Below, one piece after another: positions 2,576 through 7,787 of a stretch of 7,787 nt of DNA (position 1 is its first letter; each line of letters opens with the position of its first letter). Source of the stretch: Paraspadella gotoi (taxonomy: Eukaryota > Animalia > Chaetognatha); assembly GCA_051294375.1 (NCBI GenBank), contig JBJCIZ010001083.1, forward strand, positions 1 to 7,787, in the 5' to 3' direction. The notes beneath the pieces are model-generated. The model saw only the letters and a program-made list of their open reading frames with translations, made no database searches and was not told where the DNA came from. Both the position numbers and the translations under genes were made by a program.

Positions 2576-2793
2576 TCGTTGTTCCATCCAAAACTGTCTT
2601 TCCTAATTCAGAATTAATATTATTTCATTATTAGTTGTTGAAGAGACATCATATGCACACGCACAGGAGTTAATGATTTAGTATTAACCATATAAACTTT
2701 TTTTTTGAAAAGAAAAAAAAATATTTAGTATTAGGCAATTCGTGGTGGGATTTATAAGTATAATTTTCTTACTTTTTTGCCAACATTTTGATT

Positions 2794-2931
2794 CTTATGA
2801 ACTAATCATTTTTAAAGGCAGTCCAGAGTAAAAGTAAATTGTTCCAGAAAAAGTCAGGTAGAGAGAGAGAGAGAGAAAGAGAGAGAAACAAAATACAAAA
2901 GAACTGCCTTGAAAAATGATTTGTTCATAAG
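2794..2931. mobile_element. MITE-like element, 31-bp terminal inverted repeats with internal (GA)n
   Basis: CTTATGAACTAATCATTTTTAAAGGCAGTCC (2794-2824) versus the reverse complement of 2901-2931: 28/31 identical. TA on the right and TT on the left, so the TSD is unclear. Confidence 0.75.
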
Positions 2932-3039
2932 TAGAAACCCACTATGAAATTAATTTCAATAGGGGCGGGGGTTCAAAACTTTAGTCTTGAAGTCTACTTT
3001 TAGGTAAAAAAAAATTTATTCAAAAAGTTCGATTTTAAT

Positions 3040-3081
3040 GTCTCTCTGGAGGCGTGGGTTCGAATCCCACCACTGTCACCA
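3040..3081 (+). pseudogene. 3' half of tRNA-Leu including encoded CCA
   Basis: GTCTC-TCTG-GAGGC long variable arm, GTGGG-TTCGAAT-CCCAC T arm, CACTGTC-A-CCA acceptor 3' strand. Nearly identical to animal tRNA-Leu 3' halves as recalled. No D or anticodon arm upstream. Confidence 0.9.
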
Positions 3082-3420: not shown

Positions 3421-4113
3421 TAATGATAAAAATTTTTTTTAATCAATCTTAACTTTTTTGATGGATTCTGATAGAGCATAAAAAGTTAAATGAAAAATTT
3501 AACTACAACTTTCAAAAATATTTATGTTTTCTTGGTCAAAATTAAAAAAAAGTAATAAAATTATCGAAAAATGATGATGATGATGATTATAAATAGTTTT
3601 TCATATTTTTTACATACTTATGATCAAAATATCGAAAAAAGAATTATACTTTGTGTAGCCTTTCCTATTTATAAATAAATATTAAAAAATTAATATATGG
3701 AGTATGGAATAATATAAAAAACTTGTCTATTCAATTTTTTTTAAAAATGTCTAAATTTTCGTTTGAGCAGGTGCTTAATTCAATTTCTTAACCACCTTAC
3801 AGAGTTAGTCTCCCCCTATCATAAGAATCAAAATATTAGCATGAAAGTAATAAAAATGAACTTGTAAATTCTATTATGAATTGCTTAATACTAAATATTT
3901 GTTATTCCTTGTCAAAACCAAAAAATATTTAATAATTTTATATTGCTATATTATTTATTATAATGAAACTTGATATGATATACTCAAGGTTTGAATAAGA
4001 GTCGTCTTACTTCTAAAACCCTTGGGACTAAAGTTAAATGAAACTAAATAGAAAAAAACTAATTAATAAAGTTTATACAGCTTATTAAAACTGATCTTAA
4101 ATTTGTATCAGAT

Positions 4114-4390: not shown

Positions 4391-5137
4391 GAAAAATCGT
4401 TGCTTGAACTACTTCAAACTCTTTCTAATTCAAAAACGCGATGAAAGAAAGGATTTCACATAATGGTATAAATGATGATATTGCTGGATTAAAGGTTTTT
4501 TTTAAGGAAAAGAAAAGAAAATTATAAATCTGATTAACTTTTTGATGCATGTTTCTCTTCTCCTTCACCTGGAAAAACTTAAAAATAGGGTATTCCCTCT
4601 AAAGATTTACATAAAACTTTATGAAAAAAGGGTCTAACTTCCGACTATGGTTTTTGAGCAAAAAAATGGTATGCCAGTAAAAAAATTACTGATGAAAAAA
4701 ATTAATTTAGTAAAAGGTATAAAAAATTAAAACCAGGAATTGTTAAAATTAGCAAAGTCTCATTAATTAAATTTAATTGAAATGAAATTTTGAATATTTA
4801 CATTTAAAGTTAAAAGTCCTTTGGCTATTAAAAATAATTGATAAATATGATAGGATTTTTTTATGATATGGATGATAATCCTTTGTGATAAAGCTGTCAT
4901 ATAACAGTAAAAAACCATTAGCAGTCAGAATAGATCAAAAACCTTTAATAATACATATTTAATTGATTATCGAGCACTATTTCCGGTTTGGGACACGCCC
5001 ACTATTGATGAAAACCATTTTTTGAACATTTTTTGTCTAAGTACTACTTATTAAATAATTGTACTAATTGCAGGATAAGTAAAAAACAACTGACTAACTT
5101 TTCATTTGTAGTAAACAGAAAAAATTCATATTGTAGT

Positions 5138-5356
5138 TGCAGGGGTACATAATTATATTTCATTGACAGTAAACAGATACAAGGAGATGTGTACATGAAG
5201 AGATCGAATATTGCGACTGTAACCAGAGAATGGGACACCGGCTAAGAAAGAGAGAGGGAGAGAGAGAGAGAGAGAGTCAGTAACCGGCTTTCCTTTCCAC
5301 TAAACATAGTGGCCAGCTGGGGTCAACCCCGTGGCGACGAAACCGTCGTCGCCACA
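5138..5356 (-). repeat. 3' LTR (219 bp)
   Basis: Minus strand reads TGTGGCGACG...TACCCCTGCA. It is preceded on the minus strand by the PPT and contains a (GA)n tract and a terminal 10-bp hairpin GTGGCGACGA/TCGTCGCCAC. Confidence 0.93.
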
Positions 5357-5370
5357 TCCCCGCCCCCCGC
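5357..5370 (-). other. Polypurine tract
   Basis: Minus strand GCGGGGGGCGGGGA lies directly before the TG of the 3' LTR. Confidence 0.85.
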
Positions 5371-5630
5371 GAAAAGTCAGAATGACTTTCTTCTTTTGGT
5401 GGATGGCGTGACTGTTTGGGGGCGTAGGCTGGAGGGTGACTACTTGAAAAAGTCCGCGCATACTTGTGACGAGGCGCTGCTGGCCGAGAAAAAGGCGGAG
5501 CTGCGCAAACAGCGGCGTAGGTTCGTGGAGGCGGTGCTGACTTTAAAGGCGCGGAAAAGGAAGTCGGCTGTGATGACCATGGAGGTGGCGGATCCCACCA
5601 AGGAAGTCGCGGAGCCTGCGGAGATGTTGG

Positions 5631-5684
5631 AGCCGGCCGAGATGGCGGAAATGGCCGAGATGGCGGAGCCGGCCGAGAGGGTGG
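5631..5684 (-). repeat. 3 x 18-bp coding tandem repeat (PPSRPA/PPSRPF/PPSRPA)
   Basis: Visible in both the DNA (GGCCGAGATGGCGG units) and the translation. Confidence 0.9.
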
Positions 5685-5885
5685 AATCTGCCGACATTGC
5701 AGAGCCGTCCTGGAAGGCGTTGGATGCGTTGGTATAACTCCAAGGTCGCGACGGACGGCGCGTATAGCTGAAATAGCCACGCCAATGAGACGGTGAAAGT
5801 CCTTGCTCAGAGACGAAGCCGACAGCCGCGCTGCATTGAGGACATCGATAGCGGCCGTCATGGCGTCGGCGGCATTTACTTTGCC

Positions 5886-6101
5886 GTCGAATTTTGTCTG
5901 TGTTGCAGCATCAACTGATGTCTGGTCTTCTGTTGCAACTTCGGCGTTGACCATGAGTTTGTCTTCTGTCGTACAAGCGGCGTCTTTGCACTTGATAGCA
6001 TTAGTGAGAGTGGAGGCGTTTTTGTAGATAATGGAATTAGTTGCGGTAGAGGCGTGAACTGTTGTAAAAGCATTTGTGGAGGTTGAGACTTCTCTTGTAT
6101 T
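5886..6101 (-). repeat. Six degenerate 36-bp/12-aa coding repeats ending in T-x-T-like motifs
   Basis: NTREVSTSTNAF / TTVHASTATNSI / IYKNASTLTNAI / KCKDAACTTEDK / LMVNAEVATEDQ / TSVDAATQTKFD. Confidence 0.75.
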
Positions 6102-6386
6102 TGACGGGCGCCAACCAGGAGGGGGTGCTTTCACCAGGGACTTGAATGATGCTGGTGCTGATACGAGAGGCGCCGCATTTCTTATTTATTTTTGCAAGAA
6201 GATGACGTCATAAAAGTTATTCATTTCTTCCTCCGAATTGAATGCAAAAACGAAGTTTATAGTCCCAGCGTCGTCGATGATTTTTATATCCGTCATTTGG
6301 GAAGTAAACCTTAATTTGTTCGAGATTTCGACGTTGCGCTCGCATTTTCCGTTACGTAACCCATCGCTGATGAAATAAATATATTT

Positions 6387-6620
6387 TGAAGAGACAGTAA
6401 TTATTTTTATGTGTTAGTGACAGAACCGTTCAATATAAGCAGTCCCTGAGCTTCGGATCAGGCTGTAACACCGTGTTAGAGGCGGGTTAAGCGCTCCGTC
6501 CCTCTTAACTGCTAGGCGGCCACCGGGCTAGAACCCCGGACCTTTGGGTTGGCAGGTGAATGACTTGCCTCCGGCACCAATGGCCGCTGATGAACGATGG
6601 GTGGATTTTAGTCCACCATA
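6387..6620 (-). mobile_element. Nested 234-bp solo-LTR-like insertion containing a tRNA-derived sequence (Helenus/Pol III-TRIM-like)
   Basis: Absent from paralogous ORF copy 1. Flanked by a 4-bp ATTT duplication (6383-6386, 6621-6624). Minus-strand ends are TATGGTGG...TCTCTTCA (TG>TA...CA). No poly-A tail. Confidence 0.85.
6515..6587 (-). pseudogene. tRNA-like module (possibly Gly-GCC derived), degenerate; A/B-box-like Pol III promoter
   Basis: 73 nt with a perfect 7-bp acceptor stem GCGGCCA/TGGCCGC, A-box-like TGGTGCCGGAGG, loop CTGCCAA, variable region AGGTC and T arm CCGGG-GTTCTAG-CCCGG. The anticodon stem does not pair, so it is not a functional tRNA. Confidence 0.75.
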
Positions 6621-6723
6621 ATTTATTACCGGTCAGGCTTTTGACAATTCTTAGTAGACCGGTGAATAAGGCTTTATCGTTTCCCACTTTGAACATAAGA
6701 ATGCCGTCGACCAAGTGAACATG

Positions 6724-6733
6724 NNNNNNNNNN
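6724..6733. other. Assembly gap (10 N, true size unknown)
   Basis: Run of n between the two ORF copies. Confidence 1.
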
Positions 6734-7291
6734 ATTAGTCACTAATTTAGTGAGAGTGGAGGCGTTTTTGTAGACAATGGAATTAGTTGTAGTAGAGGCA
6801 TGAACTGTTGTAAAAGCGATAGTGGAGGTTGAGCCTTCTCTTGTATTTGATGGCCGCCAACCAGGAGGGGGTTCTTTCACAAGGGACGCGAGTGATGCTG
6901 GTGCAGGTACAGTTCCTGGTATGAGAGGCACTGCCATCGTTGATTTTGCCGTATTTGTTATTGTTTTTTGCAAGAAGATGACGTCGTAAAAGTTTTTCAT
7001 TTCACTCTCAGAATTGAATGCGAAAACAAAGTTTATAGTCTTTGCGTCGTCGATGATTTTCATATCCGTCATTTGGGAAGAAAACCTTAAGTTTTTAGAG
7101 ATTTTGACTTTACGCTCGCATTTTCCGTTCTGAAGCCCATCGCTGATGAAATTAATGTATTTATTACCAGAGAAATCTTTGACGACTCTTAACAGACCGG
7201 TGAATACGGCTTTGTTGTTTCCCACTTTGGTCATGAGAATTCCGTCGACAAAATGTACATGTGCCACAAAAAGTTCGGTCGTATTTTCCAT
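6734..7291 (-). CDS. Element ORF copy 1 (5' part, runs into the assembly gap): divergent WH1/EVH1-like (PH-fold) domain at aa ~1-109, then Pro-rich linker and start of the TxT repeat array
   Basis: ATG at 7291 in AAAAATGG context, ~30 nt after the PBS; open to the gap. TGLLRVVKD..KY....GLQNG...FAFNSESEMKNFYDVI aligns by eye with WASP WH1 (CGAVCFVKD..SY...GLQAG...LNFADEDEAQAFRALV). Comparison with copy 2 shows many synonymous changes and in-frame indels. Confidence 0.8.
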
Positions 7292-7322
7292 TTTTAATTT
7301 GTTTCAGAAGGGTTTCCACGGA

Positions 7323-7340
7323 TTCTCGTCGGGCTCACCA
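7323..7340 (-). other. Primer-binding site, best resembling the 3' end of tRNA-Trp
   Basis: Minus strand TGGTGAGCCCGACGAGAA starts with TGG (complement of CCA), 4 nt after the LTR's CA. Plus strand TTCTCGTCGGGCTCACCA resembles the animal tRNA-Trp 3' end (ATCACGTCGGGGTCACCA, from memory). The isoacceptor call is less certain than the PBS call. Confidence 0.85.
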
Positions 7341-7344
7341 GTTA

Positions 7345-7455
7345 TGTAGGGGTGCATAATTATATTTCATTGACAGTAAACAGATTCAAGGAGATGTGTA
7401 CATGAAGAGATCGAATATTGCGACTGTAACCAGAGAACGGGACACCGGCTAAGAA

Positions 7456-7493
<38 letters not shown>

Positions 7494-7576
7494 TCAGTAG
7501 CCGGCTTTCCTTGCGACCACTAAACATAGTGGCCAGCTGGGGTCAACCCCGTGGCGACGAAACCGGCGTCGCCACA
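7345..7576 (-). repeat. 5' LTR (232 bp)
   Basis: Minus strand reads TGTGGCGACG...CACCCCTACA. It matches 5138-5356 apart from about 6 substitutions, one small indel and (GA)n length. It is followed by the PBS. Confidence 0.93.
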
Positions 7577-7669
7577 TAGTCCACGCCAACTTCCGGTAAA
7601 TTGTGCGTAGGTCTAATGCAAAATCTGATTGACGACACCTTGTTAATCGTTTTAAGCACTTAAAATTAT

Positions 7670-7787
7670 ACTAGAAACTGTACAGGATTGTGAAAATTTT
7701 CGACTGCATGGTTAAAAAATCTTAAAAGCAATAGGGATCGAGCCTAATTTTGATGATAACCAAATATTGATGCGATGATAACCAAAT
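7670..7787 (-). mobile_element. Probable 3' end of another copy of the same HINE-like family, running off the window
   Basis: ACTAG terminus, imperfect hairpin at ~7676-7713, ATCGAGCC (7737-7744, inverse of GGCTCGAT at 2563-2570), then 22-bp-period repeat GATGATAACCAAAT x2. Confidence 0.5.

What the first reader, a model, noticed from the sequence alone, without database searches (positions are those of the whole stretch)
5138..7576. LTR element with all cis signals that carries a WH1/EVH1-like cytoskeletal-adaptor ORF where gag should be
Seen: LTRs, TSD, PBS and PPT are all present. A single ORF type starts ~30 nt after the PBS and ends inside the 3' LTR (reconstructed ~420 aa, intronless). 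No zinc knuckle, protease, RT or integrase motif is visible. Known: TRIM/LARD non-autonomous elements are usually non-coding, and I know of no LTR family encoding a WH1 domain. Inference: this is a protein-coding non-autonomous LTR family whose product (WH1-like + TQT array + Pro-rich) could couple retroelement particles to the host actin/dynein machinery or act as an accessory or decoy factor. An alternative is an LTR-mediated retrocopy of a host gene.
Basis: partly seen in the sequence, partly recalled or inferred. Interest (0 to 1): 0.9.

Follow-up and report, generated by a model that had tools for sequence, protein, structure and literature searches.

The report
Gag-less LTR element carrying orphan gene
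A real retrotransposon-type insertion, with intact ends and no replication genes in its sequenced part, carries two broken, related copies of an orphan protein gene that evolved under purifying selection and likely has a PH/EVH1-type fold; a link to actin or dynein was not shown.

Summary
The LTR element is real: LTRs 5138-5356 and 7345-7576 (about 97% identical), TG..CA ends, a 4-bp TSD, and a PBS and PPT on the minus strand. Contigs of 4 of 4 public runs hold the uninterrupted target. No gag/pol motif lies in the sequenced part.

The '420-aa single ORF' is not there. The element holds two paralogous partial copies, 79-90% identical, one on each side of a 10-N gap. Copy B is broken by a 234-bp high-copy repeat and a stop. 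The ORF is genuine: dN/dS between copies is 0.19-0.42 (p about 2e-5), and at least four versions occur in one run.

It has no homolog in any protein search. A PH/EVH1-type fold rests on weak, concordant leads; the models were too poor to test it. The domain lacks the tryptophan EVH1 uses to bind polyproline, there is one TQT rather than an array, and the Pro-rich end may be an antisense shadow.

Verdict: a likely helper-mobilised Gypsy (CsRn1-like) element carrying captured cargo. New variant of a known kind; cytoskeletal role unsupported; A+B tandem versus assembly chimera unresolved.

The parts
5134..5137 (+). target-site duplication TAGT, left copy
   Evidence: uninterrupted target in 4 of 4 runs
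5138..5356 (-). 3' LTR (219 bp, TG..CA, GA/TC microsatellite)
5357..5370 (-). polypurine tract (12 of 14 purines) abutting the 3' LTR
5277..6185 (-). ORF copy B, part after the stop (P0002, 302 codons): S/T-rich linker, one TQT (5903-5895), a segment that reads as helical by eye (about 5873-5748), Pro-rich end (about 5723-5406, 29% Pro), stop inside the 3' LTR
   Evidence: first 52 compared codons dN/dS 0.42
5246..5737 (+). antisense ORF P0004 (163 codons, first Met late) overlapping the Pro-rich end; it is unclear which strand is the coding one here
6186..6188 (-). in-frame stop in copy B
6189..6386 (-). ORF copy B, second half of the beta-rich domain (83% aa identity to A)
6387..6620 (.). 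secondary insertion: 234-bp very high-copy repeat with 4-bp TSD ATTT (6383-6386, 6621-6624) and a tRNA-like hairpin
   Evidence: (depth 1e6 against 1e2-1e3 beside it in X1; sharp loose ends at 6386/6387 and 6620/6621)
6621..6723 (-). ORF copy B, first half of the domain (76% aa identity to A); its start lies in the gap
   Evidence: loose end behind 6723 in X1
6724..6733 (.). assembly gap (10 N, true size unknown)
6734..6746 (.). 13-nt hairpin (6-nt inverted repeat) at the contig edge, likely an assembly artefact
   Evidence: listed contigs leave the window sequence at 6734-6750
6747..7291 (-). ORF copy A (P0001): open from ATG 7291 to the gap; residues 1-109 form the beta-rich domain (likely PH/EVH1-type, no Trp), then an S/T/P-rich linker
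7323..7340 (-). primer-binding site starting TGG, 4 nt from the 5' LTR; likely tRNA-Trp type
   Evidence: similar LTR end and PBS start in CsRn1_Cv1
7345..7576 (-). 5' LTR (232 bp, TG..CA)
7577..7580 (+). target-site duplication TAGT, right copy

Best explanation
This is a genuine LTR-element insertion with no gag or pol motif in its sequenced part, likely copied and integrated in trans by an autonomous Gypsy element (likely CsRn1-type), and it carries as likely captured cargo an orphan gene that evolved under purifying selection and is predicted, weakly, to have a PH/EVH1-type fold. SHOWN: LTRs, TSD, PBS, PPT, several diverged versions of the ORF, dN/dS below 1, decay of copy B. INFERRED: transcription from the 5' LTR (7576 leftwards), priming by a host tRNA (Trp-like), and packaging, reverse transcription and integration by a helper. 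INFERRED: the ORF entered a short element with these ends by template switching from a cellular mRNA, as in LTR-mediated retroposition, and then spread as a small family. The protein would be a binding module (beta-sandwich plus C-terminal helix) on a disordered linker with one possible LC8-type dimerising motif and a short helical segment. It would not bind polyproline in the EVH1 way, and it is likely dispensable for movement. My odds: PH superfold 0.7, descent from EVH1/WH1 proper 0.45, working polyproline site 0.15.
For: Cis signals and TSD; uninterrupted target in 4 of 4 runs. CsRn1 is characterised by a Trp PBS and a typical 4-bp TSD, and CsRn1_Cv1 has 180-bp LTRs (PMC3630058 passages). 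Its LTR ends in CTACA and its PBS starts TGGTGA, as here (supplement passage). No gag/pol motif. A vs B: dN/dS 0.19, 0.32 and 0.42 in three blocks; Fisher p 2.8e-5 for the domain, 2.4e-5 overall. Of 36 listed differences in other contigs over copy A, 16 are synonymous and none makes a stop; 10 of 20 are synonymous in the domain, against about 20% synonymous sites. At 7184 three X1 contigs differ from the window and one matches exactly, so at least 4 versions. A joint 5395-7323 in 2 of 4 runs implies a TRIM-sized sister; loose ends at 7301-7323 show the same LTR end and PBS in front of other internal sequences. Fold leads: Atlas top hits WH1 0.85/0.84 and EVH1_PP4R3 0.84, with 10 of the 10 best family hits in one clan; Pfam PH E 0.19 and ISP1_C E 0.042 (that ISP1_C is PH-fold is recalled); strands plus a C-terminal helix in model 1. 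Precedent for capture: PMC5131818 (abstract).
Against: No parent gene and no helper were found, and no host genome was available. No homolog; the single hit is a low-complexity tandem-repeat match outside the domain. The Atlas score is under 0.9 with 151 shared features, which the tool calls a lead only; a third of shuffled proteins reach 0.8, and a third also give ten of ten hits in one clan. Both models are unusable (pLDDT 31 and 40), model 2 lacks the long C-terminal helix, and no fold search gave a significant match. The short-form joint has only 25-26 letters on one side at 80% likeness, which the tool warns can come from repeats. Purifying selection among mobile copies fits an ORF that helps the element just as well. 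The variant counts use 36 of the 40 rows shown (of 95) and may not be independent of the A-B comparison. Some copies carry frame-breaking deletions (5 nt at 7177; 31 nt at 7071-7103).
Confidence: 0.5

Rival explanations
1. Satellite element with its own accessory protein: the ORF is kept because its product helps this LTR family or its helper (RNA trafficking, particle assembly, escape from silencing), not the host.
For: The ORF sits where gag would, 31 nt after the PBS. dN/dS 0.19-0.42 between two LTR-associated copies. In one search the 8 listed indel rows inside the ORF group into 6 events that are multiples of three, if rows of equal depth are read as one contig. No cellular homolog was found. 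LTR elements do capture extra ORFs (PMC5408684 abstract).
Against: A sister without the ORF seems to exist. A protein made by a non-autonomous copy acts in trans, which weakens selection on each copy (general reasoning). The missing homologs may reflect a poorly sampled host taxon. In X8 the +2 at 5465 is listed without its +1 partner, and 12 of 24 indel rows were not shown.
Confidence: 0.25
2. One reading: an EVH1 adaptor with an LC8-binding TQT array and a Pro-rich arm that couples particles to actin or dynein.
For: WH1/EVH1 clusters head the Atlas list; one D-x-x-TQT motif; 29% Pro in residues 155-260 of P0002.
Against: No Trp in residues 1-144 of A or in the compared parts of B, while the EVH1 groove is built on one. 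One TQT, not an array. The Pro-rich frame is easier to explain as a shadow of the + strand ORF (P 0.02-0.04) than the reverse (P 0.003-0.006); this test was post hoc and the region is partly repetitive.
Confidence: 0.1
3. The gap hides gag-pol, so the element is autonomous and the ORF is a duplicated accessory gene at both ends.
For: The gap size is unknown (10 N); no listed contig spans it.
Against: Contigs leaving the A side of the gap run into sequence like B's tail, and one leaving the B side runs into sequence like A's start, so both edges lead into more of the same ORF. A unit with the ORF running from PBS to PPT would be only about 1.24 kb internally.
Confidence: 0.1
4. About structure only, compatible with any mechanism above: the A+B arrangement is an assembly chimera, and the locus really holds one ORF copy (element about 1.7 kb), one contig having walked into a paralog. 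The alternative is a true tandem hiding about 950 nt in the gap if a middle LTR is present.
For: The junction falls exactly on a scaffold gap with a hairpin artefact at its edge; both flanks are repeats; several paralogs exist.
Against: Same TSD on both sides and 97% identical LTRs tie the two ends to one insertion. Exact pieces of A (7139-7295) and B (6078-6275) both occur in run X1 at similar contig depth, 234 and 231, which fits either reading. Tandem TRIM arrays are known (abstract start of PMC4528315 in listing).
Confidence: 0.45

Closest known systems
LTR-mediated retrocopies of animals (PMC5131818; abstract seen)
   Same: A non-retroelement ORF flanked by LTR-element ends, intronless in the sequenced part, on the element's sense strand.
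   Different: There the parent gene is known and the copies described are young; here no parent is found, and there are several copies 10-20% apart with dN/dS below 1.
CsRn1 lineage of Ty3/Gypsy (PMC3630058; passages and supplement passage seen)
   Same: 4-bp TSD, short LTRs (219-232 vs about 180 bp), LTR ending CTACA, PBS starting TGGTGA.
   Different: No CHCC gag, no pol, no GPY integrase in the sequenced part; at most a non-autonomous dependant.
Animal TRIMs: PbTRIM (PMC3532108, passages), Helenus (PMC10886601, parts 1-3 of 6)
   Same: Short LTRs, PBS, PPT, 4-bp TSD, Gypsy helper inferred; a TRIM-sized sister of this element seems to exist.
   Different: TRIMs are under 1 kb and non-coding; this element is at least 1.7 kb and carries a selected ORF. 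Its own LTR shows no tRNA-like part.
Single-ORF non-autonomous LTR elements such as zebrafish BHIKHARI (PMC12067270, passages)
   Same: One ORF between LTRs, no pol.
   Different: BHIKHARI's ORF is a Gag with a capsid domain; this domain is predicted to be beta-rich and has no Gag motif.
WH1/EVH1 (PF00568), EVH1_PP4R3 (PF22972) and the PH-like clan
   Same: About 110 residues; nearest Atlas clusters; strands followed by a C-terminal helix in one low-confidence model.
   Different: No Pfam match to WH1 at E up to 10; no tryptophan in the domain; fold unconfirmed.

Membership tests
LTR retroelement insertion | two direct terminal repeats with TG..CA ends | tested here: met
LTR retroelement insertion | target-site duplication | tested here: met
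   TAGT on both sides; uninterrupted target in 4 of 4 runs
LTR retroelement insertion | PBS and PPT next to the LTRs on one strand | tested here: met
CsRn1 lineage (Gypsy) | PBS complementary to tRNA-Trp | tested here: inconclusive
   resembles the CsRn1_Cv1 PBS start; no host tRNA set; pattern scans gave only chance matches
CsRn1 lineage (Gypsy) | 4-bp TSD | tested here: met
   feature from PMC3630058
CsRn1 lineage (Gypsy) | CHCC gag motif, RT and GPY integrase | tested here: not met
   absent from the sequenced part; gap content unknown
TRIM | under 1 kb, non-coding internal region | tested here: not met
   2439 bp as assembled, ORF under selection; a short sister form may meet it
Non-autonomous LTR element | no gag-pol anywhere in the element | tested here: inconclusive
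   none in sequenced part; both gap edges lead into the same ORF; gap not bridged
Non-autonomous LTR element | autonomous helper sharing LTR ends and PBS | not testable with these tools
   no genome held; other internal sequences follow the same PBS (loose ends) but cannot be fetched
WH1/EVH1 domain | match to PF00568 above cut-off | tested here: not met
   no WH1 hit at E up to 1 or up to 10
WH1/EVH1 domain | PH-like beta-sandwich with C-terminal helix | tested here: inconclusive
   Atlas 0.85; models pLDDT 31 and 40; fold searches not significant
WH1/EVH1 domain | conserved tryptophan of the polyproline groove | tested here: not met
   no Trp in residues 1-144 of A; feature
LC8-binding TQT array | several TQT-type motifs in a disordered region | tested here: not met
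   one TQT, no [KR]xTQT (pattern recalled)
LTR-mediated retrocopy | intron-containing parent gene and microsimilarity at the junctions | not testable with these tools
   no genome; no homolog found
Gag-only element (BHIKHARI-like) | helical capsid domain | tested here: inconclusive
   no Gag Pfam hit; both models beta-rich but low confidence; the tail (P0002) was not folded

The most novel reading that the evidence does not exclude
A satellite LTR family that has replaced gag with a PH/EVH1-fold protein of its own, keeps it under purifying selection across transposing copies, and uses it (with an LC8-type dimerising motif) to steer its RNA or its helper's particles through the host cell: an accessory-protein-coding satellite of a Gypsy element.
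Probability: 0.22. Interest if true: 0.8.

Novelty: new variant of a known kind. Interest (0 to 1): 0.5.

Why it matters
Non-autonomous LTR elements of animals are described as non-coding (TRIMs) or Gag-only. A family that carries a non-Gag orphan gene under purifying selection would be either a live case of a new gene family spreading on LTR ends, or a satellite element with its own accessory protein. I found no report of an EVH1/WH1/PH-like ORF in an LTR element among the papers listed by three searches (20 of 68, 15 of 415 and 15 of 60 listed); Repbase and Dfam could not be searched, so this is weak. The score is held down because the fold, the helper, the parent and expression are all unshown, and the copy here is broken and cut by a gap.

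Full report
1. What is there. The window is AT-rich eukaryotic DNA (flank GC 0.26); no whole genome is held. Direct repeats at 5138-5356 and 7345-7576 differ by 6 substitutions in 184 bases outside a GA microsatellite and one 3-nt indel. Both run TG..CA and are flanked by TAGT. On the minus strand an 18-nt PBS starting TGG lies 4 nt inside the right LTR, and a 14-nt purine tract abuts the left LTR. The element therefore reads right to left. Contigs joining 5133 to 7577 with four shared letters occur in 4 of 4 public runs, which proves the TSD. The flanks are repeats, so these contigs may be uninterrupted paralogs of the target rather than an empty allele.

2. The ORF. There is no single 420-aa frame. 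Copy A opens at ATG 7291, 31 nt after the PBS, and runs 186 codons into a 10-N gap. Left of the gap lies a second copy, B, 79.4, 87.2 and 89.6% identical to A over three blocks. B is broken by a 234-bp high-copy insertion with its own 4-bp TSD and by a stop at 6188-6186, after which 302 codons run into the 3' LTR. In other runs, contigs leaving the A edge of the gap continue into sequence like B's tail, and one leaving the B edge continues into sequence like A's start. Each copy thus has its own head and tail. Either the locus is a true tandem with up to about 950 hidden nt, or one contig walked into a paralog and the real element is about 1.7 kb with one ORF. No listed contig bridges the gap; I put the chimera at 0.45.

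3. The ORF is a real gene. Between A and B, dN/dS is 0.19 (34 codons), 0.32 (65) and 0.42 (52), with Fisher p 2.8e-5 for the domain and 2.4e-5 overall. Of the 40 difference rows shown (of 95), 36 fall in copy A: 16 are synonymous, 20 non-synonymous, none a stop; 10 of 20 are synonymous in the domain, where about 20% of sites are. These rows may include B-like copies and are not independent. Eight indel rows inside the ORF group into six events that are multiples of three if rows of equal depth are one contig (12 of 24 rows shown; one X8 row lacks its partner). Against this, a 5-nt and a 31-nt deletion occur in other copies, so part of the family is decaying. At 7184, run X1 holds three differing contigs and one exact one: at least four versions, plus B. 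It is a small family, not a single copy; depth was not used as a count.

4. What the protein is. No sequence homolog was found in Pfam, the PDB, the 5.8-billion and 1.84-billion protein sets, or viral and metagenome contigs; the one hit, P0006, is a low-complexity artefact. Three weak leads agree on the PH superfold: Atlas neighbours are WH1 (0.85, 0.84), EVH1_PP4R3 (0.84) and other PH-like families; Pfam gives PH at E 0.19 and ISP1_C at E 0.042 (ISP1_C as PH-fold is recalled); model 1 shows six strands and a C-terminal helix. None passes a threshold. The Atlas warns that a third of shuffled proteins reach 0.8. The models have pLDDT 31 and 40 and disagree on the helix, and six fold searches were not significant. 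I put the PH superfold at 0.7. No capsid or Gag signal appeared, and no protease, RT or integrase motif beyond one chance pattern in an off frame.

5. The cytoskeletal reading. EVH1/WH1 domains bind polyproline over a characteristic tryptophan (PMC7407642 and PMC3362030, passages). Copy A has no Trp in residues 1-144, and the compared parts of B have none. There is one TQT, not an array. The Pro-rich end overlaps a 163-codon + strand ORF. An analytic null makes the + frame hard to explain as a shadow of the Pro-rich frame (P 0.003-0.006) and the Pro-rich frame easier to explain as a shadow or by composition (P 0.02-0.04) (post hoc, partly repetitive). The three-part 'WH1 + TQT array + Pro-rich' architecture is therefore not established.

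6. How it most likely works. Shown: cis signals, TSD, multi-copy ORF, purifying selection, decay. Inferred: RNA from the 5' LTR is primed by a host tRNA, then copied and integrated by an autonomous Gypsy. CsRn1 is the best candidate: it is characterised by a Trp PBS and a typical 4-bp TSD (PMC3630058, passages), and CsRn1_Cv1 shares the LTR end CTACA and the PBS start TGGTGA (supplement passage). The isotype was not verified. A joint 5395-7323 in 2 of 4 runs (short side, weak) and loose ends at 7301-7323 suggest the same ends carry very short or different internal regions. The ends then look like a general vehicle and the ORF like cargo that is not needed to move. I favour capture of a cellular gene by template switching (mechanism from PMC5131818, abstract), at 0.5. 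The rival, a satellite element keeping its own accessory protein, gets 0.25 (0.22 in its boldest form); the actin/dynein version 0.1; hidden gag-pol 0.1.

7. Comparison and novelty. It works like a TRIM or other non-autonomous LTR element but fails TRIM membership (size, coding; PMC3532108 passages, PMC10886601 parts 1-3 of 6). It is not a CsRn1 member on the sequenced part. It differs from BHIKHARI, whose single ORF is a Gag (PMC12067270, passages), and from rotifer elements, whose extra ORFs accompany gag-pol (PMC5408684, abstract). No EVH1/WH1/PH-like LTR cargo appeared in the papers listed (20 of 68, 15 of 415, 15 of 60 listed); repeat databases were not available. The scan's earlier findings held nothing on it.

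8. Verdict. Observation partly confirmed; interpretation partly supported. New variant of a known kind; interest 0.5. The boldest open reading, a satellite LTR family with its own PH/EVH1-fold accessory protein, has probability 0.22 and would deserve 0.8.

Noticed in passing
window 6387-6620: Very high-copy 234-bp repeat (depth 1e6 against 1e2-1e3 beside it in X1) with sharp ends, a 4-bp TSD and, on the minus strand, a tRNA-like stem with a GGTTC box-B-like motif (z -2.05; no fitting Rfam hit). Could be a solo LTR of a Helenus-type TRIM (PMC10886601: animal Helenus make 4-bp TSDs) or a SINE; its ends are TG..TA on the + strand, not TG..CA.
   Followed up: partly
window 5246-5737 (+): 163-codon antisense ORF with GC 0.63/0.43/0.76 by codon position over 5541-5744 (derived) and a 9/18/36-nt repeat; a third frame (5440-5910, minus) is open too. 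No Pfam hit.
   Followed up: partly
window 5395/7323 joint in runs X1, X2: A TRIM-sized sister with about 60 nt between the LTRs may exist (short side of 25-26 letters, so weak).
   Followed up: no
window 7301-7323 and 7360, loose ends: Other internal sequences and other LTR bodies share this LTR end and PBS; two of them, read by eye, start with a similar leader and an ATG but a different N-terminus. One of the others may be the helper.
   Followed up: no
window 6987-7105, contigs X1 record 3 and X3 record 12: A 1.4-kb contig matches only 119 nt of the domain (21 differences) and is unlike the stretch elsewhere: a candidate for a diverged or LTR-free relative (parent?). It could not be fetched.
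   Followed up: no
window 3039-3081 (+): 3' half of a tRNA-like sequence ending in CCA (tmRNA model E 0.0011, 16.9 bits): a reverse-transcribed tRNA fragment or an orphan PBS.
   Followed up: no
window 4900-5133 and 7577-7787: Both flanks are repeats; 7748-7787 begins a high-copy short tandem satellite.
   Followed up: no
window 2698-2931 and 3819-3924: Inverted repeats: 29-nt arms 2794-2822/2903-2931 (93%) around a GA tract, and about 100-nt arms 2702-2800/3819-3917 (79%); MITE-like remnants.
   Followed up: no
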